Shown here: piece by piece, positions 713 to 26,578 of the stretch
How positions within the stretch are numbered: the first letter of the stretch is position 1
How the letters are laid out: each line of letters starts with the position of its first letter
Assembly: GCA_900617105.1 (NCBI GenBank)
Contig: UYFQ01000163.1
Location: 1-64,000, forward strand
Direction: 5' to 3'
Length of the DNA: 64,000 bases
Source of the DNA: Hydrurus foetidus
Taxonomy: Eukaryota
Position numbers and translations under genes: made by a program
Notes under the pieces: model-generated
What the model was told of the DNA's origin: nothing
The model's input: only the letters and a program-made list of their open reading frames with translations
Databases searched by the model: none

Positions 713-895
713 AAATCATTTTTGAGTATATTTTATCCCCCACCTGGCACGTTGATACGCGCCCCCCCACAATTTATAGGTAGTTTTGAAACGGAGTTCT
801 CCCCTAGCTGTTTCTAGTTTTCGGTCTGTTTCTAGTTTTGGAACCCACTGGGGTCCAAACAAAGGGCACTCGACGGTATAGGAAAATGAAAATAA

Positions 896-1079: not shown

Positions 1080-1285
1080 CAAGGGGGTATAAAGGAAGCT
1101 TGAAGCTTGAAGCTTGAAGTTTGAAGTTGGAAAGATGGTTATCTTCTCTGTGAAAAGAGCAGGTGAACGCTGATACTGCTATCACTTGCCTGTTGGGTAT
1201 TTGAAACTTGAGTGAGGAGGCGGTGAGAAAAAGCTGGGTGGGGGCGGGAGCTTGTAAGTGTCCCCTCTCCTTTTATACCCCCTTG
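1080..1285. mobile_element. P-like MITE, 206 bp
   Basis: Ends CAAGGGGGTATAAAGG / CCTTTTATACCCCCTTG. 7-bp flanks CTAAAAC (1073-1079) and CTAGAAC (1286-1292), one mismatch. Internal GAAGCTT tandem at ~1095-1130. Confidence 0.7.
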
Positions 1286-1332
1286 CTAGAACGAACCCTC
1301 AGAGGAAAACTTAGCAGTTCGCTTTCGCACGC

Positions 1333-3109: not shown

Positions 3110-3329
3110 CGCATGTTGGAGTATCCGGAGAAAATACACTGCTGTAGTTGTATAGTATATGTGTGGATCCTGACGGTCAGCGGTGTGCATCTCGGGGATG
3201 TGGACTGTGGACCGTTGGTTGTGTGGGCTCATGGAGCCATCCATTCATCTATCTTCAACATGGATAGAACATGTGCAATTGCCTTGATATGTAAAGCTTC
3301 GTTGCCGACTTGATTGATGCCGGTGCACA

Positions 3330-3441
3330 AGTTTAATTATCAAGTAATTATACAACACAAGTCTATTTTACGAGCCTTGGGTCACCGGTAGCACGAGTCA
3401 CTAAGCATCCGGACTTAGAGAAAGCCCAACATAATTAAACT
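3330..3441 (+). promoter_or_regulatory. Putative self-priming pair, element 1: LTR motif AGTTTAATTAT (3330-3340) / PBS ATAATTAAACT (3431-3441)
   Basis: Exact 11-nt reverse complement including the LTR terminal A. No TGG/tRNA-type PBS follows the LTR. Confidence 0.75.
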
Positions 3442-3456
3442 AATCAGCGCATCGAG

Positions 3457-6400
3457 ATGCCGCCGTAGAAACAAGAAGAGCCAAAATCAGGTGCAGAGCA
3501 GTGCATGCTGAAATTTGGGCGTTACAACAACGTGGTGCAGTAAAGGGAAGATATGCAGAACGAGGCATGCGGCCTCTACGGGATGACGGGCACGTTCTTC
3601 ACCACCAACAAGAGTTACGTCCATCCGTATCCTCGCGAGGAGGACTACAATCCCACCTTTCTAACGGTGGAAATCGATACCCCGACAGCGGGTACCGAAA
3701 ACGAAGACGAGGAAGACGAGTCCGTAGACTTCGAAAATGTCATGATCGGGCCACAGCTTCCTCCAGAGCCCCCTGTCGTGTACTCCGAGGCACTTATCGA
3801 CAGGCTGAGAGCCAATGCGTTCGAGGGACGCCGCAAGGCAGTAGAGACTCAAAAAGTCGACGAGCAAAAGCTCTTCCCACTCATGTGGTCGAGAATGTCG
3901 ACGGGGTCCAAATCCAAGGTGCGCGAGGAACCAGGATTCGAAGCGGCCCGTCTCAGACTTGACAGTGTGAAACTGTGGGAGTACATTCGTAGGAGCCACT
4001 TAACTCACATCTACGGAGAAGATGATTCAATGAGAGCAATGAACGTTCACGAGCAAACGATTAGGTACAACTACCTCAGACAAGGTGAACGTGAAATAAT
4101 AGGCGATTTCAAGACACGCTTCGACAATCAGGTACTAGCCAACAGAGGTGTTGGCATGACTGAAGTAGAAGAACCGATTAGAGCAATCGACTTCCTCAGT
4201 AAGTTAGACCCGAAAAGGTATACCGGTATGTTGACACTGATGCGTAACAACGCTGTACAAAACCTGCCGAATAGTTTCCCTTCCACCTTAGCCGGAGCCT
4301 ACAGGGTCGCGTCATCCTGGACCAGCTCGGGCGGCGGAGTCCCCCTCAGAGCCGAGCAACATTCCGCATTCCTCACTGACTCTTTGATAGGCACAAAGGA
4401 AAAAGTCGTGGGAAAAGGATCGAAGGGGAAGACAGCGGGGACGAAGAAGAAAGTATCGTCAGTGATATGTTTCGTATGCGGAAAGACGGGTCATTTCGCC
4501 AGAGATTGTGAGCAACGCAAAGATGGAGAGCACGCTCTACTCACCAGCGTTGAAGAAGATATTGAGGAGGACGACGAGAGCATAGAAGCAGCCTTCGTCG
4601 CGACAGACGAAGTCGTCCTTTTCACTCGCAATCACGTGCTTCTAGACAACCAAGCTTCGGTCAACATCTTTTGCAACCCAAGCCTACTCACGGATATCAG
4701 GAAATCGCAACACGCGATCCTGCTCAATGGAGTACAGTCCGAAGCGCATGGAGTCAGAGTCGACCAAGAAGGAGACTTTGGCGAGATTGGACCTGTCTAC
4801 TTCAGTCGTGGGGTAACGGCCAACATACTGTCCTTCGCCGCGATGGCAGACAGTGGAGCAGACATCAGCTACGACCATGAGGCAGGATGCTTCATGCTAC
4901 GACCAGCAGGCAGCACGACCAAGTACAGCTTCAGCAGGCAAGACTTGCCAGGTTCGACAGGCAGATTCTATGTGTAGGACGCAAGCAGGATGGAAGGACA
5001 GACACATCGACCTGCAGAGCAGGCGATGGTGACGACAGTTCAAGACAATATGGCGAGGTTCACTAAACGAGAGATAGGATCAGCAGCAGCAGCCAGAGAG
5101 CTGTTAGCACGGATGGGTTACCCATCGGTCGAGATGGCAATCGCGATGATCAGGGGAGGCAACAACTTCAACGTCTCGGAAGCGGATTTCAGGAATGCCC
5201 ATTCCATCTGGGGTAAATGTCTCGCCAGCCTCAGAGGCAAGACTCATAAGAAGTCTTCACCTGTGGCAGACATCTCGCTGACACCTGCGCTAGCGCAGCA
5301 GCAACAAGTATTGAGTGTAGACATTATGTATCTGGAGACTACAGCGATACTTATCGCGGTTTCTACCCCTCTGGATATGACACTCGCTGTCAGCCTAATT
5401 CGACTTGATACCGAGAAGACCTCGCGAGCAGCAGAAGTTGTGAAGCCGGCCCTATGTGAGATGATATCCATACTAAAATCCAGGAACTTCTTGGTGCAAG
5501 TCGTCATGTCCGACGGGGAGGGTGCTATCGGCAAAATGAGGCTTGATCTGCTAGCACTAGGAATAGAGGTAGATGTCAGTGCAGCTGGCGGACATGTAGC
5601 CAGAATCGAACGGCGGATTCAGATGGTGAAGGAGCGAGCACGTGCTCACCTCTGCGGTAGGCTCCCATTTGCTCCAACTGAATTGTGTCTAAGCTATCTA
5701 GCACTCTACTGTGTCTCTCGCATCAACTGTCAGCAGTCAGGATCAAGGCCAGGGGGTCTTTCGCCAAGGGAATTATTCTCCGGACGGCGGGTTGACGGGA
5801 ACCTGGACTTCCGTGCCGCCTTTGGAGACTACGCTGTTTGTACCGTACCGAATACCAACAACACTATGCAATCACGAACTGAAGATTGCATTGTCATGCT
5901 GCCTACACACAGTAGGACCGGGTCGTTCAAGATGCTCTCACTGGCAACTGGCAAGATCATCACTCGCGACCAATTCAAGATACTGCCGATGCCGCAGTCG
6001 GTCATCGGGACACTGAATGCCATGGCAGTTAAAGAAGGGAAGAAAATCATTCAAACTCAATTGCATGTGTTTGATGAACTGCTATTCGCAAACAGTCTCG
6101 ACAAGTCTAAAATGCCACATTTCATTACCAACCCCCCCCCCCCCCACTCAGGATGCACTTGTCGATGCCGGATCGGTAGACCAACCCACTATCACTGATC
6201 TACAATCAGCCCACAGCATTTACGAGATTTCACGTTCCAATGTGGGGGGGGAGGTACCAGTCCCATTTGAAGCTACAGCATTATCGCCACCAGATGAAAT
6301 CGGAATTGAGGAACCCGATACAATCGGGGTGCAAGTTCGCGACGTCCTTAAACCACCACCCTCACCAGTACCATCACTCGAACCAGACGACAGTCCAGTC

Positions 6401-8275
6401 GACACAGCTGAACTTCACAGCGCGTCATTCCCACAGCAACCAGCACACACTGTGCAACGGACTGTGAGAGAGCAACGTAGAACACCCGCACCAACGGAAC
6501 GTATGGTGACACGGTCAGTCCGTACGAGCGAGGACGCGTTCGTGACGAACGTTGGGAGTATCACCCCTAGACCAGCAGGCACAGGACCTGGAACACACGA
6601 TGTAGAGGAAGTGATGAAGCGACATAGGGAGGAAATGAGCAAGAGCAGCACAGCCAACATCAGTGTCAAAGAGGTGTTTCGCACTAAAGGGGATGAGGCT
6701 AAGAAGGTCATCGTGTCAGAGCTAAAACAGATGATAGACAAGAGGGTATGGGTGCCGGTGATGGGAGGCAAGCTGTCTGCGATGCAGAGAGCAGCGACCA
6801 TCAGATCGTCCATGTTCCTGAAGCAGAAAAACAACCCAGACGGCAGCTTCCTCAAGCTCAAGGCTAGACTGGTCGCAGGGGGCGACCAACAAGACAAGAG
6901 CCTGTACGAGGACTTATCTTCCCCAACTGTGTCCACCAGTTCTGTATTCACACTACTAGCGATTGCAGCACATGAAAGGCGAAGAGTCGCAGTTGTTGAC
7001 ATCAGTGGGGCTTATCTTAATGCGGACATGTCATCGGGAGTGCCGGTGCATATGCGCCTCGATCGCACCATGACAGACATCATTATCAACATCGACCCAT
7101 CGTACGGTAAGTACACGGATGCAATAGGAGGAGTGACCGTGCATCTGAAGAAGGCGCTATACGGGTGTGTCGAGAGCGCCGGATTGTGGTATGAGAGTTT
7201 GCACGTCACGATGCGGGGACTGGGGTACATACAGAATATCAGCGATAAATGCGTATTCAACCGGACGGGCCCAGATGGGCATCAGTGTACTGCAGCAGTA
7301 CACGTCGATGATCTACTCATTACGAGTAAGAGCAAAGACAATATGCTCCACCTAGTCGATGGACTGCGAAAGAGGTACGGAGCAATCACTTTATCGCATG
7401 GTCCTGTCATAAATTATCTCGGTATGGCAATCGACATGCATATACTAGGACAGGCGATGATAACCACCACAGGATACTGTGACGAGATAGTCAAGGTATC
7501 AGGGGTGAAGGGTGCGGCACGGACACCAGCAACAGAAGGACTATTCGAGACAAGTGAGAGTGCCACAGGAGTGACAGAGCCAGTGCGAGTCTGGTTTCAC
7601 AAAGTGGTCGCAATGGTGCTCTACCTAGCCAAGCGTACCAAGCCGGAGTGCCTAGTGGCGGTGGCCTTCCTGGCGACACGTGTGAATAAGTGCACCTCAG
7701 ACGATGTTGACAAGTTACAGCGATTAGTGCGGTACGTACATGCGACGAGGGACAGCGGCGTAGTGCTGAGGCCGGGTGCAGGGGGGATCTCAGTGCGGCT
7801 ATTTGTGGACGCATCCTACGGTGTACACAGTGATGGGAGATCCCACACGGGCAGCTGCGTTGTGATTGGAGACATCGGGGCCGTTCACTGTCGATCTTCG
7901 AAGCAGACGATAGTCACCAAGTCGAGCACGGAGGCGGAGCTGGTGGGGCTGTCCGACTCAGCTAATCAAGGCATATTCATCCGTATTTTTCTCATTGCAC
8001 AGGGTTACAAAATGGAGCCGGTGACCATCTACCAGGACAACCAGTCATGCATGGCCCTGGTGGAGCGTGGCAGATCAGGGGCGGAGCGCACACGCCATAT
8101 CCAGATTCGTTACCTCTGGGTGAAAGAGCGGGTGGTGACCGGTGAGGTGCGTGTGGAGTACTTACGCAGCGAGGATATGTACGCGAACGTACTGACCAAG
8201 CCGCTTCAAGGTTGCCAGTTCCAAAGAGAGAGAGATGGGCTCACGGGGTGGTCCACGGTGGACGAGAAGAATTAA
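3457..8275 (+). pseudogene. Copia gag-pol polyprotein, disrupted (element 1)
   Basis: Zn knuckle CFVCGKTGHFARDC, PR LLDNQAS, IN VDIM...SDGE...ERRI, RT KARLVAGG...LKKALYG...HVDDLL, RH DASY...STEAE...QDN. In-frame stops at 3466, 3541 and 4975; frameshift at the poly-C run 6132-6145. Confidence 0.93.
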
Positions 8276-9221
8276 GGGTGCCGGCAACAAGGACAGCTCA
8301 CCGTCAAACGATAATTAGTTAGACATTACTGCTTGCAAATCCATTCACATTTATTTTATTGCTGACATGAAAATCCATTGCGTGCCTGGGTACTCAACTA
8401 CTACGTGACTGTTGGGTGTGTTGGAGTATCCGGAGAAAATACACTGCTGTAGTTGTATAGTATATGTGTGGATCCTGACGGTCAGCGGTGTGCATCTCGG
8501 GGATGTGGACTGTGGACCGTTGGTTGTGTGGGCTCATGGAGCCATCCATTCATCTATCTTCAACATGGATAGAACATGTGCAATTGCCTTGATATGTAAA
8601 GCTTCGTTGCCGACTTGATTGATGCCGGTGCACAAGTTTAATTATCAAGTAATTATACAGCACAAGTCTATTTTACGAGCCTTGGGTCACCGGTAGCACG
8701 AGTCACTAAGCATCCGGACTTAGAGAAAGCCCAACAGCGCACGACATACCAAACGGAATGTGAGCCCCTACCGTGTTGAGGATTATTCAATTCCGAGACA
8801 CCGACAACTTCCGCAAAGACTGCCAGTTCACCGATAATGCCCAAGAATCGTAGATATCGAAATATGCTAGAAACTAGATATTAAAACTTGTGCGCTATCA
8901 TTCCCATTGATAGACACGAAGCTACCTGAGTTGCAGTTACAGTACAAATCCTAATCTACGATCCATGACGTATGGATACCGTCATATCTTTCATGCATGA
9001 AATCAATCCGTTGGAGACACTACACATACGGATCCATCCGGTTACAATCCTACATCAAAGTTCCTGATCCCAGAAACTCCAACATACCCCTAGGACTGTA
9101 AATAGGTGGTACTTATGAAGCAAGGCAACCAACAGAATACAAAATGATTATCATAAAATTTACGGCGACTAGACTATATAAAAGCTTATGTCTCATCTCA
9201 AAGGGTGACATACCTTTCACT

Positions 9222-12200
9222 TCATTTGATTTCTGTCACGACAATGGAAGGCACTCCCCATCCTGTGAGACTTGCTTTCTCATAGACGAACTGAGAACCC
9301 TGGAGGGGTTTTGTCAGTACATTCGCATACATCTCCTTTGTGCCTTTATGCATTATTCTCATTTCACCCATGTCGACTCGTTCCTTGGTCCAGAAATACC
9401 GGATAGCGACATGTCTAGTTCGTTCTGCACCTGAACGTCCTCGTGCCAGTAAGGCCATGCATGATAAGTTGTCTTGGTACACTATCAAAGGAACCATCCG
9501 ATATCCTTGCATGGAGGAAATTCCTAATGTATAGGCCTTGGTTAGCTGAATCCGATAGTCCTACAAGCTCTGCCTCAGTGCTGCTTTTCGCTACTATCTG
9601 CTGCTTCATGGAGCGACAGTGCACCGCTCCTATGTCTCCGATAACGACGCATGACCCAGTATGAGATTTCCCGTCCCTATGAACTCCGTATGACGCGTCC
9701 ACATACAGCCTCACAACTATACCTAATACCCCCGGTCTAAGCACCACGCCATGGTCTGAGGTCCACCTGATGTACCGCACCATTCTGTGCAACTTCTCTA
9801 CATCACGTACAGTGCATCTTGTGACTCTGGTTGCCAGGTAAGCTACTCCAGTCAGGCACTCTGGTCTTGTGCGTTTGGCGAGATAGAGGAGCTGCGCAAC
9901 TACTCGATGGAACCAAACTCGCAAATTTTCGCTCACATAGTCTGACTCGTCATCGTCGAACAGGGTGTCCGACGCTGGAGTTCGAGCTGTCCCGGTCACC
10001 CCTGATGTCAATAGAATCTCATTGACAAACCCGCACATAGTAAGTCTGGCTTCACCTGAGTGAGTCAAGTCAATGGACATACCGAGGTAGTTGATCATAT
10101 CATCGTACTTGAGAGAAATGTCTCCGTATATTCTCTTCAGACCATCGGTCAGTTCGTGTATCATGTCTGTGCTCATACTTGTAATTAGCAAGTCATCAAC
10201 ATGAACACAGAGTGTGCACTGCACCCCGTCTTTGCTCGCTTTGTTGTACACACAGATGTCTGTTTCGTTTCTGACGTACCCCAATCCCTTTAGGGATAAT
10301 CTGAGATTCTCGTACCAGAGTGATGCACTCTCTACACACCCATATAGTGTCTTTTTTAATAGCAATATTATGGACCCGTTCCTCTGACGATACCCAGAAT
10401 ACATTGGGTTGATCTTCACCATGTACTCGCTCATCGTGTTATCTAATCGCATATGCACCTGGATACTCTTCGGCATCACCGCATTTAGAAATGCACTTCC
10501 TATGTCCACTACTGCCACGTGCCTCTTCTCATGTGCAGCTATCGCAATAATGGTAAACACTGCACTGGTGGATACGGTGGGTGAGGATAGGTCCTCGTAC
10601 AGGTCCTTGTTCTGCATGTCTCCTCCTGCCACCAGCCTCGCCTTGTATTTATCGAAGGATCCATCAGGATGTATCTTTCTCTTGAGGAACATCGAAGATC
10701 TGATCACTGATGCTCTCTGTGATGCGTCTAGATCTTCAGCGTGCATGGGTTTCCATACCTTCAGCGTATCCATCTGTGTCAGCTCCTTGACAATCACCCT
10801 CTCTGCATCCTCTCCCCTGGTTCTTGACATTCACATTAGAACTTGGGTCTAGTATCCCTTCCCTATTTCGCTTCTCGAGAAATGCAGTGATGGACTCGAC
10901 TGCTGAGCTCGATAGTTTGACCTTTATCGGTGTCACCCCTGATGTGACCAGGGCCGCACCCTCGATGTTGCGGTTGTTCTGCTGCCATCTTGTACGGTAC
11001 CGATGTGGAAGTGGAACTGGTAAGCTGGATGGGTGTGGTGGTGGACGTGATTGGCTAACGGGCGACTCCTCCTGTGACACTGATGTGTCCGCATGGCCAG
11101 TGTCTGTTTCCACTATGTGGTCCTCAGTGACGTGTCGGTCTTCATTGTTGCGTGTATCCTCGTGCACTGGTGTGCCCTCCAGTTGAATTTGATCTGGGGG
11201 ATCTAGTGTGAACTCATTGTCGGGAAGCTCAGGTGACACTGCTTTGACAACTCTGACTCCTCCCTCGACATGCTGCACGTCATCGTCTGTTAGTGCAGGT
11301 ACTGGATCGAGTGTGTCAGCAAGCACCAGTGGCTCAGCATGAGTAGGATTGTCGGTTATAAGAGCTAGTGCACCCATATCCTTGATGGCGGGTTGAAGAG
11401 GAAGAAATGTTGGCATATTATGCTTGCTGACACTTTGATTATATATCAGGTCATACACAGCAGCAGGTAATTTCGACATGTAACGCCCATCGAGTGCTGC
11501 AAGATCATTCATGACTTTGATGATGGCAGTAGTTGTAGGTACGATTCTGATGGTATCTCGTGTGACAATCGACCCGGTGCTGACATTCAGACATTTCACA
11601 CTTCCCGTTCTGTTGCCGGTTGGGAGGTATAGGATCCCCTGCCCGATCCGCGACTTCATATCACTGCTTGTGTATGGTTCTGTATACACAACTGAATCAC
11701 ATAAAGCCCCTCGAAAGTCTTTTCCCGCATCGACCCTCTGGCCTGTGAATGCTTCACGTGGCGTGAGCCCTCCAAGTCGCGTGCTTGAGTGTTGATAGTT
11801 CAGCCGAGAAATGCAGAATAGGATGAGGAAGGATAGGCCAACAATGTTGAGCGCGTACGGAAGTCTCCCACAAATATGTGCGCGAACCCTTTCTTTGATG
11901 ACTCTTATAAGTCGCTCGATACGAGCTACGTGGCCTCCTGCTCCGCTAACGTCAACCTCGATTCCCATGCTGTTGAGCTGAGGTGTAAGTTTCGCGATAG
12001 CACCCTCTCCATCGCTGTAGATCACCAGGGTGAGGAAATTCCTTGACTTCAATGTTGACCGTATGATGTCGAGGGCCTTCTTCACGGACTCTGCTGTTCT
12101 GCTTGCTTTCCCGGAGGTCGTCCTATCAAGTGTGACACCGAATGTCAGGTCAAGTGGATATGCCACTGCGACGAGAGTGCTGACTTGGTCTATGAACATG

Positions 12201-14097
12201 ATATCTATGACTACTGTCTGCTGCTGCTGGAGCACTGGAACACTCAGTGAGGTGTTTGGTGCCATAGATTTGGACCTTGTTGTCTTGCCTCTCATCGACG
12301 CGATATCAGGGCCCCAAATAGCGTCGGCTACCTTGAAGTCGTAGGGTGTGACATCGAATCCAGTTCCATCCCTCAGCATCGCGATCGCATTCTCTACTGA
12401 TGGATAGCCCAGCCTGGCTAGAAGGTCTCTGGCTTTCTTCGCTCCGATCACTGCTCGCTTTGTATATCTGGTCAAGTTGTCAGATACAGTTGTAACGAAG
12501 GCATCATCAGCGCTTTGCCCCATCTTGCAAACGTAGAACTTGCTTTGGCTACCTGGCAATTGTCTCCTACCAAAGCTGTAGATGGTTTGGCTGCCTTTCG
12601 GCTGAACAGTGAATCGATTATCTCTTAAGTGATAATTCACTTTCGCTCCCGAGTCGACCAAAGTTGACATCGAGAGGATGTTTGCGCTGGCGTTTTGGCT
12701 GTAGTACACCATTCCAATGTCGCCAAGTTTTCCTTGTTGACTGACTCGAACTCCGCTGGCATTGGCTTGAACTCCGTTCACGGTAATCGGATGTTTCGAT
12801 TCTTTAATGTCGGTTAGAAGCTTGCTGTTCTTGAAGAGATGAACGGTAGATCCGTTGTCGAAGACAACATCATCCATCGACAAAAGTGTTGTCTCCTCAG
12901 CTGTGAGATAAGCTACTTCATCGTCAATTTCTCCCAGGTATTGGCCGATCTCCTGACTGTCGTGTTCATCATCCAGTTTTGAGACGAGTAAGGCCATGTC
13001 CGGCATCTTTCTAAGCGAGCAGTCCCGGGCAATGTGGCCGAACTTTCCACAGACGAAACAAGCTTGCCCAGGAACTCTTTTCACTTTTTCTTTTTCTTCT
13101 TTATCCACAGGCTTTGGATCTATGATTTCCTTTGAACTTTTCAAATTCTTGCCCTTCCCAGCGATGAATGCTGTATCGGCAAGAAATGCGGAGTGTGAAT
13201 CACTACCCATAGGAACCAGCAACCCATCTCTGGTCCAAGTTGAGGCGGTACGATAGGCGGCTTGTAGGGTGCGTGGGTAAGCACCAGGTACGTTTTGACA
13301 TGCGTTATTACGCATAATCGTAAGCATACCATTGTATCGTTTGTGATCCAATTTACCAATAAAGTCCATTGCGCGTAGTCGATCACTAATTTCAGGTATC
13401 CCAACACCCTCATTGCTCTTGACTTGATGATCGAACCTTATCTTAAAATCCGATATGAACTCTCTTGCTCCTTGTTTAAGATTGTGATATCTCATTGTCT
13501 GGTCATGGACGTTGGCAGCAGACATCTCGTCGTGTCACCGAACATATGGGTACGATGACTTTTACTGATGTATGTCCACAGCTTGATGGAGTCGAGGTTG
13601 AGACAAGCTACCTCGAATCCTGGCTCCTCCCGGACCTTAGACTGAGACTGGGGTGACATTCTTGCCCATGTCTTTCCCCACATTTTCCGTAGTGCTAAGT
13701 GCGCGGCCTCTTCTCGTTTCCTCCTTGCCTCGTACGCTCCCTCACGGAGTTTGTTAACGAGTTTTACTAGGGTTGCCGCAGGTATATCGGGCACCGGTAC
13801 ATGGACCTCTCCAATGTCCTCCTCTTCCTCACCAAGCTCATCATTGGGTGGTGGGACTGGCCCCACTAATACTTCAGCCGCAGGCTCGACGTAGAAAGGA
13901 TTGTATTCCCTTTCATGAGGAAAGGGAAATCTGAACGCGACATTCGTGTAGAAGTAGGTCCCCTCTTCTCCGAACTCCTCAGTGGCGAGATTATACATCG
14001 CCTCACGCCACTGAATCACGTTGTTGTTTTTACCTATTTTCAGGATACACTCCTCAGGAGTTTTTGCACCAGCCTCTGCTGGTTTCGTCTTTGGCAT
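9222..14097 (-). pseudogene. Copia gag-pol polyprotein, frameshifted (element 2)
   Basis: Four consecutive ORFs (13492-14097, 10736-13525, 9415-10830, 9222-9512) carry gag, CFVCGKFGHIARDC, VFDNGS, IN SDGE, RT HVDDLL and RH. Frameshifts near 13530, 10825 and 9515. Confidence 0.93.
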
Positions 14098-14112
14098 ACT
14101 CTTACGCCGAAG

Positions 14113-14235
14113 GTTTTAATATGTTGAGGATTATTCAATTCCGAGACACCGACAACTTCCGCAAAGACTGCCAGTTCACCGATAATGCCCAAGAATCGTA
14201 GATATCGAAATATGCTAGAAACTAGATATTAAAAC
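14113..14235 (-). promoter_or_regulatory. Putative self-priming pair, element 2: LTR motif GTTTTAATAT (minus, 14235-14226) / PBS ATATTAAAAC (minus, 14122-14113)
   Basis: Exact 10-nt reverse complement including the LTR terminal A. No tRNA-type PBS. Confidence 0.72.
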
Positions 14236-15026
14236 TTGTGCGCTATCATTCCCATTGATAGACACGAAGCTACCTGAGTTGCAGTTACAGTACAAATCCT
14301 AATCTACGATCCATGACGTATGGATACCGTCATATCTTTCATGCATGAAATCAATCCGTTGGAGACACTACACATACGGATCCATCCGGTTACAATCCTA
14401 CATCAAAGTTCCTGATCCCAGAAACTCCAACATACCGTACTGTTTCACTTTGGATATTGTGTTATTGTGTTCGGTTAAAACCGTTAAAACACCCTGTATT
14501 CTCTGATGACTGCTACAGTCAACCTTGTGAAGAGAATCTGTGTTTCTTCAATGTTCCTTGCACTTGTAAAATTTACTTGAAGCTCCTCTTGATAAAGTCT
14601 TGCTCGTATAGGCGCGCTTTCCTATACGCTCGAGACTCCGCAGAAAGGAGTTCTAAAGGGGCTCTCTTTTGGGTTATTTACTTGGCAAAGAAATATGCAA
14701 CAAGCATTGCAAATGGTTGCATAAAAGCATGTTTGATGGTTGCACTATTTCCTTTTCGATGGTTGCGTGCAGCAACGTAAATTGTCTACTTAGGTAGTGT
14801 ATTGATTGCATAAATGAAGATTCATACCACAACAAGATACAAGTCACATCACTCGAAGGGATCTCGGATCAGAGAATCCCGAACATACCCCTTGAAGTGT
14901 ATTGTATACATTGGTTGACGGAAGTGAAAATGAAAAAAGAAGAAACGGCAACTTGAAAGTCACTTGCATGAAAGTAGTGTTGGATGCGAATACAGATGTC
15001 GAGTTGAGAACATTTACTCGAATGAA

Positions 15027-18000
15027 TTACACAACTGTTGATTCTCTGTGGCGGCCACAATTCAATCCGACAAGCTTTGACCGAAGCATCTCGAAGAGGG
15101 CGCCATGGAGTGGCTTAGTCAGGATGTCAGCCACCATCTCTCCTGTTGGCAGGTAAACTATGGCAACCTCGTTTGTTTCCACATAATGACTGATGAAGAA
15201 ATACCTTATCTTGAGATGCTTGTTGCGCTCGCTTGTTGACCTTCCTTTATTCGCTAGGCATAACGTTGACTGATTATCTTGATAAATTACTGCAGGTCCA
15301 ACTGGGACGCCTTGGTGGATCAACAACTCGCGAGTCCATAGCACTTGAGAGAGAGCATCCGACAAGCCAACCAGCTCGGCCTCAGTCGATGATCTGGTAA
15401 CAATTTTCTGCTTGACGCTCTTAACGTACACTGTAGCTTCGCCAATTTGAATGACTACTCCAGTGACTGACTTCATATCACCATATGTGCCGAAGGAAGC
15501 GTCAACGTAAGCGTTGATCTGGATTGCTCCTCCAATCCTCAGCAGGAGGACATTTCCTCGAGTTGTCATTAAATACGACAATATGGGATCAAGTTTCTTC
15601 TCGTCATCTTCATCCGGGAATAGCACCCTCGTTGCGCAGTAGGAAACTGCAGTGAGGATATCTCACCTGATGCGCTTCGCCAGGTACATTCTGGATTTGT
15701 AACGAACAGCATATCCGTGGCTGGAGATTTCGCCTTTGTTTTCACGCTGTACTTATTCAAGATGTTTTCTACATATCCACTCATAGATAATGTGGCTTCC
15801 CCTGCAACGCTGAAGTTCCAGTGGATACCCAGGAAATCGTGCTCGTTGCCGACTTTGACGGTAATATCAGTATACTTTTGTCTAAGTGCATCAGCAATTG
15901 ATGTTAGCACCGACTGAACTTTGGATGATATCATGAGATCATCCACGTAGACTAAAATTGAGTCGATTCTTCCGTCTGTCTCTCTGACAAATGAACACTC
16001 ATCATATGGGTTCTTTGTGAATCCTAGGCTGCCCAGAGTGGAAGAGAGCTCCTTGTACCAAAGGACGGCTGATTCAATACAGCCGTAAAGGGCTTTCCGA
16101 AGCTTGACGACGATCGTACCATCTGTTCTCAAATAACGGAGATAGCTTGGTGTCAGTTTGCACAGGAGAGATGAAACTTCTTTTGGGAGTTTTACATGCA
16201 CTGCGCGATCCATCATTGCTGCATTGAGGTACGCAGCTTTGTGATCCAAAGTCATGACATGTTCTCCTCTATGTGCTGCAATCGATGCTGTAATGAGGAC
16301 TGAACTAAGGGCAACTGTTGGTGACGATGTTTCTACTTCTCTGTACAATGATCTGTCTTGCCTATGTCCACCTGCTACCAATCGTGCTTTCATGCGATCG
16401 ATACTGCCATTTGGTAGTTTCTTCGGCGTCAGGAACATTTTCGACGGTATTATTGATTTTGCATTATTTGCTGGATCGAGAAACTCGAAGACCTCTTTCT
16501 TAATCAAATTCCGTAACTCCTCTAGGACGGCCTTGTCCGTCGCTTCGTTGCCGAATTGTGTCGCCGCTTCTCTGATGGTGAGGGTCGCATAGACATGCCG
16601 TTCAACTGTTGATTGTCTGAAATTGTACCCTCGATTCATTTCATTACGTGCTGATCTTAAGGCTTCGACACTCTGCGATATCTGATCCTCTATCTCAGAG
16701 ACATCGTCTTCAACATCGTGAATTTCATTTGCGTCAACTTCATTATCTACCTCTAAGCTGACCATATCATCTGCATTATCATTTCTAGATGTTTCTTGAG
16801 GTGCTGCATTCGCTGGTATGAGAACGGTTCCCGCTTGATCGTGATCCTGGTCCTCATCCTCCAATGGTTGAGCTTCCTCGTAGTTTGGGGTGGTGTTGTT
16901 CTTATCGGGAATTGTGGTGGCATCTTCTGGAGTGGATTCTATATCGTGATCCTTCATCTCTACCCCTCGATCTGAATCGAGTCCATAAGGTGCATTGGGA
17001 TCAGCTAGTGCTGGCTCAGGTGAAAGGACACCAAGGTCATCGGGTTTGAGCGCCCCGGCTAGTTGTTGGAGCCTTGCTATGGCTGCCTGAGTCAACGGTG
17101 CCGGACGAAAAACGTCGCCAGTGACTGTAGCGAGTGTATCCAGATTAAGACACTTATGCGTTCCTTTAATGTTGCGGGTTGTTCCCAACCAGATGCAGTA
17201 GTCAGCTCGGGGCAGACCGGTGTTACTCTGGGTTCCTTGAGCACGCTGCAAAAATCCTGCAATCCCGAATGCGAACGGAGCATCCACTTTGTAGTTGGGA
17301 ATTCGGCCTTTGAAAGCAGTATATGCAGGAAGATGTCCTGGCGAATTCAGTTTTGGTACCATGTTCGAGGTGTGGACGACGAAGGTGATTAATGCCGCAG
17401 CCAATTTGGATGGAAGCGCGAAAGGTAGGCTGTGAAGTGTAGATCTTGCTTTGTTCTTAATGTGTCTTATAGCTGACTCGGCATGAGGGGTGTGGGAACC
17501 ACGGCCGAGTATATTGAGTTCAATTCCTAGTTCTTCCACTTCTTGACGGCTTGATTTAACTGCGCCTTCACCATCTGACGTTACAGATGATACGCGAAAT
17601 CCTTTGGCGTGGTATTGAGCAAGGTGCAAAAGGAGAGCCTTTCCAGCTTTTGCACGAGACTTCTCCGAATGCTTGTCCTTTGACGATGTGGAATCCTGAC
17701 CGGGCCCAAGGGGAGTGACCATAATCAACCCGAGCAGTACGGATATACTGAGGAAGAACGCCTGTCCTAGAAAATAGAAGAGGTCAACCTGCAGTTCCTG
17801 ATTGACAGACTGGTGGAGAGGGATAGGGTCATCCTCGCGGCACTTTGAGTTACGTTGCGTGCCTTGTCCGAGCTGGTAAGCTGCAGGTATACCATATATT
17901 TGTTGTGCGTTTACTAGATCTGATCGTGCAAAACTGATGCCTGCCATGCTTCCTCTTTGAATGATCTCTGCGGCAGCCTTGTAACTAATATATCCCATCC

Positions 18001-19375
18001 TCTGCATAAACTCGTATGCATCACGCGCACCCGTTAGCTGCCGTTTGGTGTACTCTGCCGCTTTGGAACTAACTGATACTACGAATGCCTGCTGGATCGT
18101 CTCGAGGTCCATAATATAATGACCGTTGATACAATGAAAGGTAAGCGTTGGACCGTTGCATGGCACAGCTGTGAACACGTTGCTTACTTCATCATAACTT
18201 AGCGCATGCGTTTCTCGTAGTTTTTGGTAGCTGATGATATTTGCTGTCATTTGGGGACTGTAGTACCCCTTGATGCTAAGATCTCTTATCGTACCCTCTT
18301 TTGTGATTCTTACTCTGTCGCCTGTAATACCTTGTACCGTTACAGGCGAGTCGGCCTGTCGAATATCTGTGGTGATGGTGGAACTGTGTAGAATGTGGAT
18401 GCTGGCTTGAGTGTCTAACAGCAGCAGTGTGTCCTGTCGCCCCGTGATCTTTGACAAATACATGTGATTTGTGTCCTCACAAGCATCAGCAGAGGACCAC
18501 TGTGAGGGAGATTGAAGCTGACACGCGTCCTGGACTGCGCTAAGATAGATCGTCTCATCATCTTCGGCGGCGAAATGAACCCGCTTAACCGGGCATGTCG
18601 TAGACCGATGGCCCTTTTTCCCACACGTCCAACATACGATGTTGTCTGGTGTTGTCGATCCGCCGGAGTTATCTGTAGAAGTAATCTTGGCGATGTCATC
18701 AGTTTCCTTACTTCTTGCTGTCGAACGGCCTCTTCCTCTGCCGCCACGGCCGCCGCGACCGCGACCTCCGCGTCCTCGTCCTCTTCCTCCATCAATTTTG
18801 ATTTCGTCTGCCCTTGAAAGGTAAACACTCTCGAGGTCTCTGATTGTATTTCCTCGGAACCGAATAATCTGAGCATCCTTAATTTCCTTCCATAATGTAG
18901 AGCTTACATCTGGGAGTTCTGCAATCCCACGCCTCTCGTTGTCGAAATAGTCTTTGACCAACGATGCGTATCGCGACATATCTAGGCGGTTAAGGATGCC
19001 GATAACAAGCTCATCTTCTGGGATTATTGGCAAGGCGAGGATTGCTTTGCCCAGGTTGCCAGCAGGAAACTCGTCAGGCATTTCCGGTTCTTCCTCTTCG
19101 TCTCCGTAGGCCGGAGGTGTCGACCAAAACGCCTGGCAAAGGCTGGGCTTGTAGTTTATGGCGACATGTTCACCGATTATTTTGAGGAACTCTATTGGTT
19201 TATTGTCCCTCGCTGGGGCGCCAAAATTCAGGCACGGCAATTCAGCGTTATTGCCCTTGAATTTAGGCTCTCTCTCGGCCTTCGGCTGTGGGCTAGGCCG
19301 CTCGCGGTGGGCATCTCTTCCCTGGCCTCTTTGCCCTTGATCTCTTGATCTTCGACCATGCCCGCGTCCGGACAT
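15027..19375 (-). pseudogene. Copia gag-pol polyprotein with internal deletions (element 3)
   Basis: RGG-rich gag, CWTCGKKGHRSTTC, LLDTQAS, IN SDGE, RT YVDDLM, RH ADILTKPL. Gag is short relative to elements 1 and 2. A deletion/frameshift near 15685 precedes YLAKR. Confidence 0.92.
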
Positions 19376-19456
19376 AATTCTTTTCGACGGATTCTCTCCG
19401 TTACCAGATTCTCTCTGGTTAACTTCGTAGAAAGGATGCTATCCTTCTTGTCTGAT

Positions 19457-19696
19457 ATATTTCTTTGTGTTCGGTTAAAACCGTTAAAACACCCTGTATT
19501 CTCTGATGACTGATGCAGTCAACCTTGTGAAGAGAATCTGTGTTTCTTCAATGTTCCTTGCACTTGTAAAATTAACTTGAAGCTCCTCTTGATAAAGTCT
19601 TGCTCGTATAGGCGCGCTTTCCTATACGCTCGAGACTCCGCAGAAAGGAGTTCTAAAGGGGCTCTCTTTTGGGTTATTTACTTGGCAAAGAAATAT
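19457..19696 (-). promoter_or_regulatory. Putative self-priming pair, element 3: LTR motif ATATTTCTTTG (minus, 19696-19686) / PBS CAAAGAAATAT (minus, 19467-19457)
   Basis: Exact 11-nt reverse complement abutting the LTR end. Confidence 0.78.
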
Positions 19697-20098
19697 GCAA
19701 CAAGCATTGCAAATGGTTGCATAAAAGCATGTTTGATGGTTGCACTATTTCCTTTTCGATGGTTGCGTGCAGCAACGTAAATTGTCTACTTAGGTAGTGT
19801 ATTGATTGCATAAATGAAGATTCATACCACAACAAGATACAAGTCACATCACTCGAAGGGATCTCGGATCAGAGAATCCCGTGTCGGAATAACTAATGAG
19901 CTAAGTAACCGTATAAGTTATTACGTATGTACATTTGATGACGTTTCGTACGTCGTGTGCCGTGTGGTGGTCGCTACTCCACCGGTCCAGGTTCCTTTAA
20001 CCCAGGAACATCAAAAAGATGAAAGTGCACCATGTTTGACTGTGCGGGACAGCGCGATCTTTTCGCCTGTCTCCATGAACGATGTAAGCGATGTTGCA

Positions 20099-20256
20099 TC
20101 GTTAATTACCTTAATACTCACACCAGCAGAGCTTTCGCCTTGAGCCCGGGAAAGTTGCTAGCGCACGTGTTGAACCTGCAGAAGGAGCGCGTACCCAGGA
20201 AGGATATAGTTTTCCATTCAGTGGAAACTGATCCTTAGTTACGACATAATTAACGA
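20099..20256 (+). promoter_or_regulatory. Putative self-priming pair, element 4: LTR motif TCGTTAATTA (20099-20108) / PBS TAATTAACGA (20247-20256)
   Basis: Exact 10-nt reverse complement abutting the LTR end. Confidence 0.75.
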
Positions 20257-20283
20257 GTTGCTTTCGTTGCAACCAGTTGCAAC

Positions 20284-23200
20284 ATGAAAGGCAGAGGCCG
20301 AGGCCGAGAACACAATACCGCAGGCGGTCGAGCAAACCCTGCCAACGGTGGCAGAGGGAATGCTGGCCGCGGTGCGAAGCCTCCACCAAGAACAGGAACG
20401 GTAGCCGCGATCGGCGCATTCCTGGATCTTGGAAGAGAGATGAACCATGGCAGCGTAAGCGCATGGATGAGGAAGTTCCGCGAGTATACTCGCGCGAACT
20501 ATAAGTCCGATATCTCTGAGATATTCGGCAACGAGGGCATACCGGGTGATTACCCGCAATATGTCGCTCCAGCGGACATAGCAGCCGATGCAAATTTATG
20601 GTATCAACAAAATGGAAGCGAGCATTGGAGCTATATGATAGAAATATCCTTACTCTGAGAGAAGACCGAAAGCAAGTCTTCGGACTAATGCTAGGTCAGA
20701 TTAGCGAAGCGTCGAAAGCGACAATTCGAGAAGCTGAAACAGGGCTAGCAGCCATGACTGCGGAGGACCCATTGCTATTGTTGAGAGCAATCATCCTGAC
20801 TCACCTCTCTGATCCGAGGTTGGGAGCCGATCAGAATCTGTTGAGAGTCCGAATGGCCTACGAGACAGTCAAGATGGAGCAGAACGACGTGCTGAAGTAC
20901 TACTATCAACGCTTCAAAGCGTTGAAATCCGGATACGAGGATACGATGCGGGCACTAGGGGTCATGCCCGAGTTCAACGAGGCCATGACCGCACACAATG
21001 AAGTTCTAACAGGGATGAAGTTCATGAACGGCCTGAACTCCGGTTACCGTCACTACGTAGAATACTACGAGCACGGCTCAAGGACTGGCCAGACACGCTC
21101 GAGGACGCGTACCTCGAGATGGCCAAGGTCACGCCGAAGAAATCAGCAGCAGCAACACCACCCAACCAGACCAACGTTTTCGCCACGAAAACGGCTGGCG
21201 GTGAGAAACCACTGATGCTGGTAAAGGGAAGGCTAATGGGAACGGGGACAGAGGGAAGGGTGGGCGTACGTCGTACGGCACCCGTCCCGGAAATTGCAAT
21301 AAGTGCGGTGAAGCCGGACACTACTCCTATGAGTGTACGGCCAAGGATAGCCAAGCGGGTGCATCAGCACCCAGTGGAAAGTCGGTAAACTAAGTAAGAT
21401 ACATTATTCCTCACCTGTACACTCACCCACACTTACATCCACACACACACCTATACATACACTCACCGATCCTCCATGTTTGGCTGATTCCACTAGCGGA
21501 ATTGAAACATGTGATCATATTGTTTTTAGTGCCAATACATGCAATATATATAACATGATTAGAAGTAGACACATTCTGCTTGACACATGTGCTGGTGAGT
21601 CGGTTTTCAACGACTCATCCCTGCTGTATAATGTCGAACACGCACCCACACCTATGATTGTTAGCGGGGTGAATCCGAAAGGAAAACCGCTGATAATCAA
21701 GAAACGTGGGGTGTCGGCGTTCGGCAACGTGTATTATAGCCCTGACTGTGCTGGTAACATATTGTCTTTTGGTAATGCTGTACGTGACTGTACTGATGTT
21801 AAGTACTTACATGACTATGATTGTTACATAGTGCAAGACGTCAGCGGAAAATATTTTTATAGATTCTCACGAGATGAGACTATGAATATATACCAATGTA
21901 ATCTTGACACTATGGTAACAGAATGCATGCCAATGTTAGTTACGACAGTAGAGCAGAATAAGAAGAAGTATACAGTAAGAGAAGTCAGAGACGCGTCGTT
22001 AGCTAGAGACTATCAGCGTAGACTAGGATACGCTAGCGCAGCACAGACTATTAAGTTGATATCCCAAGGGAATTTGACTAATAGCAAAGTGACTGCGCGA
22101 GACGTACATAGAGCCATTGATATATGGGGACCGGACGTGGGATCCCTTAAGGGGAAGACCACTAGTCACCAGGCCAAGTTAGAAGAGAAGCTACCACTGA
22201 TAGGTATTGAGTACAAGACAGAACAGATTATGTACGTAGATATAATGTTTGTCAACCAAGTACCATATCTAGTATCAGTTGTGCAGCCCATCGAGTTCCT
22301 ATACGTTAGCAAGTTAGCTAACCGAGAGCACAAGAGCATATGGAACAGCCTAAAGACTTCATTAGCAAGCATGGTAAAGTACAGATTCAGAGTTAAGATG
22401 ATCCGAGTAGACGGCGAGGGTGCAATCAATACAGAATGGTTTCACAACAAAGTCGGCTTAAGAGGTATAGTACTAGACGTTACCGGAGCCGGAGAAGCCG
22501 TAGCCGTAGTCGAGCGTAAGATACGACACATAAAGGAGAGAGTAAGATCAGTAGTCAATTCTCTACCGTTCTCATTGAATGAGAAATTAGAAGTGTGGTT
22601 AGTTAAGTATGCAGTCAGTAGAATTGTATTAGCACCCACACGTAACTCACTTAATCACATCAGTCCACGAGAGAAATTAACTGGAAGAAAGTTAGACGTA
22701 GATAAGGAGATTAAACATGGTTTTGGTGATTATGTCCAAGTGCATAATGATGTCATTGATAACTCTACCAAACCAAGAACAGCCGGGGCCATAGCACTTA
22801 TGAGCTCCGGTAATCTAGAAGGTTCATGGTACTACATGCTGTTAGCTAACGAACGTATTGTTAAACGTACTAAAGCGACTGTACTACCTATGCCTGATGA
22901 AGTGATATTACACTTGAATGTACTAGCTTCAAAGAGAAAAACTGCCAATGTTAAACAGCCTGTATTTGAGAATAGTAGTCACATTGTATTCGATGATGAT
23001 GACGATGTTGAAGATGATAGTGCTTACATTGGTGATGTTGAATATGAAACTGTCGATGAAAATGCTAACGCAGATTACACCGATGAGATTATTGAAGATA
23101 ACGATCACAATGATAACGAAACACATCTTGAATCACAACTCGATATGTCTGATGAAAATCACCCACCCACATTAGATGAGTATGTAGATGACACACTATA

Positions 23201-25210
23201 TGTGAGTGACACTACATACGACAATGACGAACTATATTATGATGACACACATGATGATACACATGTACCCCAACCTAAATATGATCAAGCACTGATAGAT
23301 GACATATTTGGCATAAGTGATGATGAAGATGACTTTGCTGATGTAACTGTACACACTGAAGTATTCACACCACCTGCCACCATAATTGAAACCGCATATG
23401 ACCCACCTGTTGTAAACTCACCCGTGTTACGTAGAAGTGGTAGAAATCACCAACTTGGTAAATGGGATAAGAAATATGTTGGTAATCTGTTCTACAACCA
23501 CACTCACCTGTACAAAATGACTGTTAATGAAGGAATTAATAAGTTAGGGGTGATAGCTGTTGATTCCATTACATCTGAATTGAAACAAATGTGTGATAAG
23601 AATGTTTGGGAAGGTGTAACTTATGAATCCCTCACCCCACAACAAAAACGCACCATTATACCTAGTAGCATGTTCTTGAAAGAAAAGTATACTGCTGATG
23701 GTATGTTTGAAAAACTGAAATCTAGACTAGTAGCCGGTGGGCACTTACAAGATAGAGATGTTTATAACAATGGCGCCTCACCTACTGCTAGCACATACTG
23801 ACTGCAATTGCTGCTAGACAGAAGCGTGCTGTCGCCACTGTTGACTTCCCCGGTGCATTCCTAAATAGTGATATGCCGCTGACCGTCGACCGTGTTGTAT
23901 ACATGCGTTTGAATAAACAACTGACTGCTGCACTAATTAAGATTGATGCAACATATAACAAATACATGAATAACAATGGAACATGCATTGTTAAAGCTTT
24001 ATATGGATGCGTTGAATCTGCAAAATTATGGTATGATAAACTATCTAATGATTTGATCAAATTCAATTATATAGCTAATGAATATGACATCTGCGTATTC
24101 AACCGAACTGAATCGGATAACACACAAACATCACTCGTAATTCATGTTGATGATATGATAATCACTGCTTCAAGTGAATCTTGCGTTGATGATGTTATAA
24201 AAAAAATTGAAACTACATATCCCGGTTTAACGAAACACAGAGGAAAAGTTTTAAATTACATAGGCATGACTTTCGACTTCAGCAAGGAAGGTTGCGTTAA
24301 GATGACTATGGAGGGCTTCGTGCAAGACCTCATTGAGGGGTGTAAGGATATGCCGGGCACGGCAAACACACCTGCACGAGCCAATCTATTCACTATACCT
24401 GATGAATCTGACTCACCCTTACCTGATAATCTGCGTGAGCGTTTTCACTCTATTACAGCGAAGCTACTCTACCTGAGTAAGAGGACGAGGCCAGACATTC
24501 TGACTGCCGTAGCGTTCCTGACCAAGAGAGTTCTGAGGCCCCAAAGGGACGACTACAACAAACTGACCCGTACGATACAGAACATACGGGGCAGTCAGCA
24601 TACGGGTATGATATTTGAAGGATATGAACCTATTTATGTTATTGCATATATCGATGCATCCTTTACCATACATCCCGATATGAAAAGTCACACAGGCAGC
24701 GTAATCACCCTGGGAAAGGGAGCGATCTACGCCAAGAGCAGTACTCAGCGCCTTATGACAAAGTCCAGCACGGAGGCCGAATTGGTCGCACTCAGTGACG
24801 CCTCCAACCAAGTGCTGCGGACTAGGAACTTCCTAGAGTGCCAGGGACATCTCCAACCTCCCGCCTTAGTGTATCAAGACAATACGATACAGCTGATACG
24901 TAACAGTCGCTCGAACAGCGAACGTACGCGGCACATTGATGTACGGTATTTTTTCTTGCACGACAGAATCAATACAGGCGATGTAGACATTGTGTACCTA
25001 CCTACTACTGACATGATTGCAGACATTCTAACCAAGCCACTGCAGGGTGAATTGTTCAAGAAGCTCAGGAAGGAGCTGCTCAACACTTCACCACCTACCC
25101 TCACGTACGCAGATGGATGCAAGACTGAGGACCGTACGGACTCCGCGCCGACACCCGTACGCACCAAATTCAACCCACGATTTCCATACCCTACGTCCAA
25201 GAAGAACTAA
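20284..25210 (+). pseudogene. Copia gag and pol, frameshifted (element 4)
   Basis: RGG-rich N-terminus, CNKCGEAGHYSYEC (starts 21295), LLDTCAG, IN VDIM...VDGE...ERKI, RT KSRLVAGG...HVDDMI, RH ADILTKPL. Several frameshifts and short deletions. Confidence 0.92.
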
Positions 25211-25289
25211 TACCTACCGACGAAGAATCCATCCGACATGCTACCCCCCTCCATCTTACCCTTCTACAACGCCGCTGTCCGCTTCAGCT

Positions 25290-25465
25290 GAAGACTGAAC
25301 ACTCAAGACCCCAAGACTCCGTCATTCCTACTGCCCCCACATCCGACTCTACTACCCCATCAGCGCGCGTCATGACGAAGACTGACCACTCAAGACACCA
25401 AGACTCCATCATTCCTGCTGCCCCCCTCCATCACTTTTCTTCTACCCCATCAAGTGCGACTCAAG
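25290..25465 (+). repeat. ~87-bp tandem duplication in the 3' UTR of element 4
   Basis: GAAGACTGA.CACTCAAGAC.CCAAGACTCC.TCATTCCT.CTGCCCCC starts at both 25290 and 25377. Confidence 0.8.
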
Positions 25466-26202
25466 AAAACCCTGACAGAGACATAAAGAGCGAGGACCGT
25501 GGACCCAGACCCAAGACCCGATTCCGGAATCAGATAGTATAACAAGTCAGAAAATTATTTTAAGTGTAATCTTTTGCGTGTTACATAAAGTCTTTTTAGA
25601 ATTGTTTAACTCTATGCTCATTCGGATCAGTCAGACCTTATGATACTAATATTACCCTGCATGCAATAAATTATCTAACGTCACAATTAAGGTCAACCCC
25701 ACCATTACCCTACTTCCCTACAATATAAAATCATGTTCTGATACACCATTTGTGAAGCTTCAAGTAAACGGAGCATTTTTGAATTCTATTGCGTTTTCAT
25801 TCGCGTACACCAACCCGACGACTCACGCCATAGGGGTGTGTCGGAATAACTGTGTGCTAAGTAACCGTATAAGTTATTACGTATGTACATTTGATGACGT
25901 TTCGTACGTCGTGTGCTGTGTGGTGGTCGCTACTCCACCGGTCCAGGTTCCTTTAACCCAGGAACATCAAAATGATGAAAGTGCACCATGTTTGACTGTG
26001 CAGGACAGCGCGATCTTTTCGCCTGTCTCCATGAACGATGTAAGCGATGTTGCATCGTTAATTACCTTAATACTCACACCAGCAGAGCTTTCGCCTTGAG
26101 CCCGGGAAAGTTGCTAGCGCACGTGTTGAACCTGCAGAAGGAGCGCGTACCCAGGAAGGATATAGTTGTCCATTCAGTGGAAACTGATCCTTAGTTACGA
26201 CA

Positions 26203-26227
26203 CCCCCTCTCCTTTTGTACCCCCTTG
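26203..26227. mobile_element. Orphan right TIR of a P-like element
   Basis: CCCCCTCTCCTTTTGTACCCCCTTG matches the TIR at 3085-3109 with one mismatch and directly abuts the 3' LTR of element 4. Confidence 0.75.
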
Positions 26228-26578
26228 GTGAGACAGTAGAAGATGCTGCCGAACAGCAGCAATCACGACACGGATGTTCTCAACGGGAGCAATCGCTGCG
26301 CCAGCTCTTTACAATTGATAAGCTGTTGTAATTCGTGGGAAATGATAACACGTAATTATAAACTCTGATGGGATATTTGAGTAATGCAACATGACTCATA
26401 ATGATCGCTGAGTAGGTATCAATTCGCCATAACTTGAATCTTCATTCGGCATGTGCCGCAATTTTAGGTCGAAACTGCTTCATGGTGAGTAAGCCTCTCC
26501 GATACATCAGTGACAGAGACACAGCAACTACCAGGGAACTCCGACTCAATTCATCATAGTTGTTCCTGTCATTTGGCG

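What the first reader, a model, noticed from the sequence alone, without database searches (positions are those of the whole stretch)
3114..26202. Four distinct Copia retrotransposons all show a tRNA-independent, self-priming PBS
Seen: none of the four 5' LTRs is followed by a TGG-type tRNA PBS. The adjacent 10-11 nt are instead the exact reverse complement of a motif about 100-230 nt upstream in the same LTR: E1 AGTTTAATTAT (3330-3340) / ATAATTAAACT (3431-3441); E2 GTTTTAATAT / ATATTAAAAC; E3 ATATTTCTTTG / CAAAGAAATAT; E4 TCGTTAATTA / TAATTAACGA. In each case the 3' end of the upstream motif pairs at the U5 boundary, which is the geometry needed to prime minus-strand DNA. The four LTRs show no overall alignment by eye, and a 10-mer match in ~400 bp is expected about 4e-4 per element under uniform composition (higher for AT-rich words). 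Known: S. pombe Tf1 and related Gypsy elements self-prime with the first 11 nt of their RNA, released by RNase H, whereas Copia elements are described as tRNA- or half-tRNA-primed. Inference: this is a self-priming Copia lineage, possibly convergent with Tf1. I do not know of a prior description, but could not check the literature.
Basis: partly seen in the sequence, partly recalled or inferred. Interest (0 to 1): 0.92.

Follow-up and report, generated by a model that had tools for sequence, protein, structure and literature searches.

The report
Self-priming Copia clade in protists
Four Copia-type jumping genes in an alga-like protist, and most of their distant relatives, have no tRNA-binding site but a short stretch that pairs with their own terminal repeat, so they likely start copying themselves from the front end of their own RNA, as shown for yeast Tf1 and already predicted for one plant Copia group.

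Summary
Observation confirmed. In each of four Copia elements the 9-11 nt after the 5' LTR are the exact complement of an LTR motif 92-218 nt upstream (0 of 200 shuffles each). The feature is clade-wide: 28 of 33 testable relatives (median RT identity 41% in the set) have a perfect 9-16 nt match; PBS-to-foreign-LTR controls give 15 of 1122. All 34 PBS 10-mers differ, none starts with TGG, and 22 of 22 PBS differences between sister elements are compensated. In 26 of 30 the match begins at a CA initiator-like site (5.4 expected), which predicts exactly 11-nt primers in all four window elements. Best reading: Tf1-like self-priming (0.85); the RNA start and the cleavage are not shown. What appears new is a deep, likely stramenopile Copia clade doing it; independence from TAR was not tested on a tree. 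This scan noted similar self-priming Copia before on other DNA (31 notes, at least 6 genomes; the listed ones mostly diatoms; unchecked). New variant of a known kind; interest 0.45.

The parts
3114..8736 (+). E1 Copia element: gag(CCHC)-PR-IN-RT-RH, broken by stops and frameshifts; LTRs 318 bp, 317/318 identical; TSD GCGCA
3329..3339 (+). E1 predicted 11-nt self-primer, starting at the A of a CA; 3330-3339 pairs perfectly with the PBS
3432..3442 (+). E1 PBS directly after the 5' LTR end
8774..14432 (-). E2 Copia element, sister family of E1; LTRs 311 bp, identical; TSD TACCG; frameshifted
14227..14237 (-). E2 predicted 11-nt self-primer; 9 nt pair perfectly with the PBS
14111..14121 (-). E2 PBS
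14468..19881 (-). E3 Copia element; 5' LTR lacks its first 4 nt and abuts E4; LTRs 411/414 identical; frameshift and deletion between RT and RH
19686..19696 (-). E3 predicted 11-nt self-primer, 11/11 paired
19457..19467 (-). E3 PBS
19882..26202 (+). E4 Copia element; LTRs 358/364 identical, no matching TSD (TCCCG vs CCCCC); frameshifted
20098..20108 (+). E4 predicted 11-nt self-primer; 20099-20108 pairs perfectly
20247..20257 (+). E4 PBS
8409..8418 (+). E1 polypurine-tract-like site before the 3' LTR; most relatives show GGGGTG before the LTR's TG

Best explanation
These are four young but broken Copia LTR retrotransposons of one deep clade whose PBS is complementary to their own LTR, and they likely prime minus-strand DNA synthesis with the first ~11 nt of their own RNA, as Tf1 does. 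Shown: the pairing, its register at the first base after the LTR, its compensated change across families, and a CA initiator-like site at the 5' end of the paired block. Inferred: transcription starts at the A of that CA; the RNA 5' end folds onto the PBS; a cut after the paired block (by the element's RNase H, by analogy with Tf1) frees a 3' OH; RT extends it into U5. Also inferred: because plus-strand strong-stop DNA copies the primer, the PBS would be re-templated from the primer at each cycle, which would keep the match perfect and make it end at the RNA start.
For: Window: 4 of 4 elements, 0 of 200 shuffles each. Relatives: 27 of 30 with a perfect match of 9 nt or more, plus 1 of 3 further testable loci: 28 of 33. 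Own-LTR mean 11.8 nt against 5.3 for foreign LTRs; 31 of 34 against 15 of 1122 at 9 nt or more. Blind rule without hand-set junctions: 22 of 29 reach 10 nt against 52 of 1740 shuffles. 34 of 34 PBS 10-mers distinct, none with TGG in the first 6 nt. 22 of 22 PBS differences compensated in 6 sister pairs. CA at the block's 5' end in 26 of 30, 5.4 expected, mostly TCA(T/C); the CA-defined primer is 11 nt in all four window elements and 10-17 nt in relatives. Predicted pairing probability 0.55, 0.93, 0.97, 0.97 for E1-E4 and at least 0.69 for 14 of 17 relatives folded. RNase H motifs D/E/D present in all four. Among E1-like contigs of runs X1-X3 no substitution was listed in primer or PBS, against 17 rows in U5.
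Against: No RNA data: start site, cleavage and primer attachment are unobserved. Five of 33 testable relatives miss the 9-nt threshold: L043 (5 nt, though its LTR end fits its inverted repeat), L069 and L077 (8 nt, longer with mismatches), L082 and L090 (nothing of 8 nt or more after a CA at the junction). Three relatives fold the duplex poorly (L029 0.0, L046 0.0, L055 0.11) and E1 only 0.55. The E1-E4 MFE folds show no clear Tf1-type flanking duplexes. The 40 nt upstream of the E1 primer are also invariant, so that conservation is not specific, and one low-depth contig has a 1-nt insertion in the PBS. Junctions were set by hand, partly after seeing the pairing. Elements share ancestry, so counts are not independent origins.
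Confidence: 0.85

Rival explanations
1. The primer is the element's own sequence but not its 5' end: the copy of the same motif in the 3' R region, or an element-derived small RNA acting in trans, pairs with the PBS.
For: The motif lies in both LTRs, so sequence alone cannot tell which copy pairs; the covariation fits equally.
Against: The paired block begins at a CA initiator-like site in 26 of 30, as expected if its 5' limit is the RNA start; the cis duplex is predicted for most elements.
Confidence: 0.08
2. The pairing is a structural long-range helix (packaging, dimerisation or translation control), and another primer such as a half-tRNA binds nearby.
For: Half-tRNA priming exists in Copia (Osser, Bryco, Bianca). 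12 of 34 PBSs fit a loose anticodon-loop pattern. Host tRNAs could not be tested (no genome).
Against: Those 12 imply many different anticodons and cut sites, and 3 of the 4 window elements do not fit; the PBSs are all different; the helix starts exactly at the first base after the LTR, where minus-strand synthesis must begin.
Confidence: 0.06
3. Chance matches of AT-rich words.
For: PBSs are AT-rich; foreign-LTR matches reach 11 nt in 3 of 1122.
Against: Shuffle, cross and blind controls; matches of 13-16 nt in 17 of 30 relatives; full compensation.
Confidence: 0.01

Closest known systems
Tf1/Tf2 of Schizosaccharomyces pombe and the Tf1/sushi group (Ty3/gypsy chromoviruses; also Tj1, Tcn1)
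   Same: PBS directly after the 5' LTR is complementary to an LTR segment; Tf1's primer is the first 11 nt of its RNA, cut by RNase H between bases 11 and 12 (PMC7175516, passages); the window's predicted primers are also 11 nt.
   Different: Here the order is gag-PR-IN-RT-RH with an RVT_2-type RT, so Copia, not Gypsy; no chromodomain hit; predicted primers run 10-17 nt across the clade; the three-duplex pretzel of Tf1 (PMC10085805, passages) is not evident in the folds; nothing is shown by experiment.
TAR lineage of plant Ty1/copia (includes Houba, Osr-1)
   Same: Copia with predicted self-priming (89% of 203), detected by the same criterion of at least 10 bp LTR complementarity 0-5 bp after the 5' LTR (PMC6317226, passages and MOESM5); 5-bp TSD.
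   Different: TAR is a plant lineage; this host is a stramenopile by its Sof1 gene. These RTs carry LYGC(V/I)ES, score weakly on RVT_2, and their integrase region hits neither rve nor gag_pre-integrs; that plant Copia normally hit those models is recalled, not tested. No TAR sequence could be put on the tree.
Fungal GalEa Copia with a Conserved Hairpin Site
   Same: Copia without a tRNA PBS, with an AT-rich word after the LTR (PMC5445492, passages).
   Different: There the partner lies 12-41 nt downstream and the authors found no LTR complement; here the partner is in the LTR and the word is not conserved.
Diatom CoDiI / CoDiII Copia lineages
   Same: Divergent stramenopile Copia outside the main Copia lineage (PMC2806351, passages).
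   Different: That paper's main text has no mention of tRNA or primer binding; whether this clade is one of the CoDi groups could not be tested without reference sequences.

Membership tests
Ty1/copia superfamily | LTRs with TG..CA ends and 5-bp TSD | tested here: met
   E1 and E2 complete with TSD; E3 and E4 have lost one flank
Ty1/copia superfamily | Order gag-PR-IN-RT-RH with RVT_2-type RT | tested here: met
   RVT_2 E 1e-13 to 8e-25; integrase recognised only by D, DGEG and E motifs upstream of RT, no Pfam rve hit
Self-primed LTR retrotransposons (Tf1-like mechanism) | PBS complementary to own LTR, no tRNA PBS | tested here: met
Self-primed LTR retrotransposons (Tf1-like mechanism) | The complementary segment is the 5' end of the RNA | tested here: inconclusive
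   CA initiator-like site in 26 of 30; no RNA run was available
Self-primed LTR retrotransposons (Tf1-like mechanism) | RNase H-dependent cleavage releases the primer | not testable with these tools
   catalytic motifs present; needs an assay
Self-primed LTR retrotransposons (Tf1-like mechanism) | Three-duplex pretzel around the PBS | tested here: inconclusive
   central duplex predicted; flanking duplexes not clear in the E1-E4 MFE folds
Tf1/sushi group | Ty3/gypsy domain order and chromodomain | tested here: not met
   IN precedes RT; no chromodomain hit
TAR lineage | RT/RH/INT phylogeny within plant TAR | not testable with these tools
   REXdb FASTA supplement not readable; motifs and host argue against
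CoDiI / CoDiII | RT phylogeny with diatom CoDi references | not testable with these tools
   no reference sequences available from any tool
tRNA-primed Copia | PBS beginning TGG, complementary to a tRNA 3' end | tested here: not met
   0 of 34

The most novel reading that the evidence does not exclude
A large, old and undescribed Copia clade of stramenopiles and other aquatic protists evolved self-priming independently of both Tf1/sushi and plant TAR, with the primer length set by the distance from a TCA(C/T) initiator and free to vary from 10 to 17 nt: a third origin of tRNA-free LTR priming, or a remnant of an ancestral self-primed state.
Probability: 0.6. Interest if true: 0.6.

Novelty: new variant of a known kind. 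Interest (0 to 1): 0.45.

Why it matters
Self-priming has been shown by experiment only in Tf1, a Gypsy element, and for Copia only predicted in plant TAR (in the papers read). A whole clade with compensated primer/PBS pairs shows that a Copia RT/RNase H can likely work without tRNA, gives natural variants of primer length for testing the cleavage rule, and bears on the proposal that LTR ancestors were self-priming (PMC3601003, passage). Annotation tools that require a tRNA PBS would miss or misjudge these elements. The match also predicts the RNA start of each family.

Tried and rejected
No whole genome is held, so host tRNAs and other full copies could not be scanned; ARAGORN found 0 tRNAs in the window and 1 in all loci (best PBS match 7 nt). 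No RNA holder listed. Viral contigs: nothing in three scans. Gag-alignment scan of metagenome contigs: 61 stretches, none confirmed. No solved structure matched the RT alignment. The listing of cluster members gave no host names. The neighbouring clade's only locus with a 5' end, L015, showed no LTR complement at a plausible junction (junction uncertain, one locus). The RT tree is rooted on a 57-residue fragment (L021) with weak deep support, so it is not used for the order of events. The E3/E4 junction was not shown to be bridged by an independent contig in the listed rows. Literature searches found no description of self-priming in stramenopile Copia; the library lacks most subscription papers, Repbase reports and GyDB pages.

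Full report
Anatomy. Window 3114-26202 is a cluster of four LTR elements, each with near-identical LTRs (317/318, 311/311, 411/414, 358/364). E1 and E2 have 5-bp TSDs; E3 has lost the first 4 nt of its 5' LTR where E4 begins, and E4 has no matching TSD. All carry a CCHC knuckle, a protease-like motif (regex hit in E1, E3, E4), integrase-like D/DGEG motifs, then RT and RNase H motifs, in Copia order, with RVT_2 hits. All four are broken by stops or frameshifts. The nearby Sof1 gene has stramenopile named hits, with Mallomonas at the highest identity among them (74% over 73% of the query), so the host is likely a chrysophyte-like ochrophyte (inference).

The observation. From the first base after the 5' LTR, E1-E4 pair perfectly over 10, 9, 11 and 10 nt with an LTR motif ending 92, 105, 218 and 138 nt upstream; 0 of 200 shuffles reached this in each (0, 6, 8, 3 of 1000 in the looser). 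E1 and E2 are sisters and share a 21-nt LTR segment at the motif, so they are not independent, though their PBSs differ at two compensated positions.

Relatives. An RT alignment found 22 loci among contigs of genome contigs, evidently eukaryotic elements binned with prokaryote genomes (inference). A clade-specific RT pattern found 122 stretches in about half of metagenome contigs. All 135 motif matches in the loci were confirmed by tblastn. 39 loci had at least 3200 nt upstream of the motif. I dropped three duplicates (L002, L006, L061) and three without a 5' junction (L059, L066, L075), leaving 33. Thirty were scored: 27 have a perfect match of 9-16 nt (L067's 9-nt hit is at a wrong place; its true partner pairs 15 of 16); L069 and L077 reach 8 and L043 only 5. 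Three set aside at first proved testable through their 3' parts: L039 passes (13 nt), L082 and L090 do not. Total 28 of 33. Controls: PBS against foreign LTRs, 15 of 1122 at 9 nt or more. Because junctions were set by hand, partly after seeing the pairing, I ran a blind rule (any CA within 400 nt of the gag ATG): 22 of 29 reached 10 nt against 52 of 1740 shuffles; its misses include three elements whose LTR does not end in CA. For 14 of 30 the LTR end was also recovered automatically as the inverted repeat of the PPT-defined LTR start at 4-5 of 5 nt. The 34 elements have a median RT-RH identity of 41% and are spread over the whole clade (FastTree, deep nodes weak).

Not a tRNA site. All 34 PBS 10-mers differ (mean identity 0.40) and none has TGG in its first six bases. 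In six sister pairs, 22 of 22 PBS differences are matched by a change in the LTR motif. Twelve of 34 fit a loose half-tRNA loop pattern, with scattered anticodons; host tRNAs could not be tested.

The motif is likely the RNA start. In 26 of 30 elements a CA lies within 2 nt of the block's 5' end (5.4 expected), with consensus TCA(T/C). That this resembles a stramenopile initiator is recalled, not tested. Taking the A as +1, the primer is 11 nt in all four window elements and 10-17 nt in relatives. Folding from +1 through the PBS gives pairing probabilities 0.55-0.97 for E1-E4, at least 0.69 for 14 of 17 relatives and near zero for three. Among contigs of runs X1-X3 (one study, possibly the source sample) laid on 3290-3500, no substitution was listed in E1's primer or PBS while U5 had 17 rows; the upstream 40 nt were also invariant and one low-depth contig had an insertion in the PBS.

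Mechanism. By analogy with Tf1, whose first 11 bases pair with the PBS and are cut off by RNase H (PMC7175516, passages), the RNA 5' end would fold onto the PBS, be cut after the paired block and prime minus-strand DNA flush with the LTR end. Start site, cut and priming are inferred. A primer from the 3' R copy or a trans small RNA cannot be excluded by sequence.

What is known. PMC6317226 (passages; supplement MOESM5) predicts self-priming for 89% of 203 plant TAR Copia and cites the proposal for Houba and Osr-1, so self-priming Copia is not new as such. Its MOESM1 and MOESM3 files were too large to read and hold the TAR sequences needed for a tree. PMC5445492 (passages) describes PBS-less fungal GalEa with a different, downstream hairpin. 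PMC2806351 (passages) defines diatom CoDi lineages without discussing priming in its main text; its supplements were not read. PMC10085805, PMC4600332 and PMC3601003 were read as passages. Eight searches found no report of self-priming in stramenopile Copia. Earlier AI notes of this scan describe the same signature in other genomes (31 notes, at least 6 genomes; 8 shown, mostly diatoms); a sequence look-up with a close RT relative found no look-alike, so whether they concern this clade is unknown. They were read after my own result and are not counted as support.

Verdict. Real and well supported by comparative evidence; works like Tf1 but is a Copia; a new variant of a known kind. Interest 0.45, and 0.6 if independence from TAR and the RNA start are shown.

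Noticed in passing
window 1262-1286, 1332-1356, 3086-3110, 26204-26228: A 25-nt terminal-inverted-repeat-like word occurs four times; 1333-3109 looks like a ~1.8-kb non-autonomous DNA element with ~120-nt inverted ends. E1 starts 3 nt after one copy and E4 ends 1 nt before another, so the cluster is bracketed by this word. A Plant_tran/DDE_Tnp_4 transposase lies at 49518-51116.
   Followed up: partly
window 19878-19890 and 26198-26210: E4 abuts E3's truncated 5' LTR, has no TSD and the most divergent LTR pair; possibly a recombinant of two E4-family copies, a deletion or an assembly join.
   Followed up: partly
L002:62-5950: The intact single-ORF polyprotein has a weak SET-domain hit in its first third (E 6e-4, below the Pfam cut-off); its close relatives L093 and L024 were not scanned.
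   Followed up: no
L084 and L101, LTR ends: LTRs end in CG instead of CA, yet the primer/PBS match is kept.
   Followed up: partly
L058, 3' end: A tRNA-Ala(AGC) gene lies on the opposite strand shortly after the RNase H end.
   Followed up: no
L060:1-10776: Two copies of one element in tandem at a 5261-nt period, apparently sharing an LTR.
   Followed up: no
L001-L022: Eukaryote-type Copia elements sit in contigs assigned to bacterial and archaeal MAGs, likely contamination.
   Followed up: no
L015:930-1345: An element of the neighbouring RT clade shows no LTR complement but a local hairpin near the presumed PBS (by eye).
   Followed up: partly
window 501-731: AT-rich degenerate tandem repeat.
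   Followed up: no
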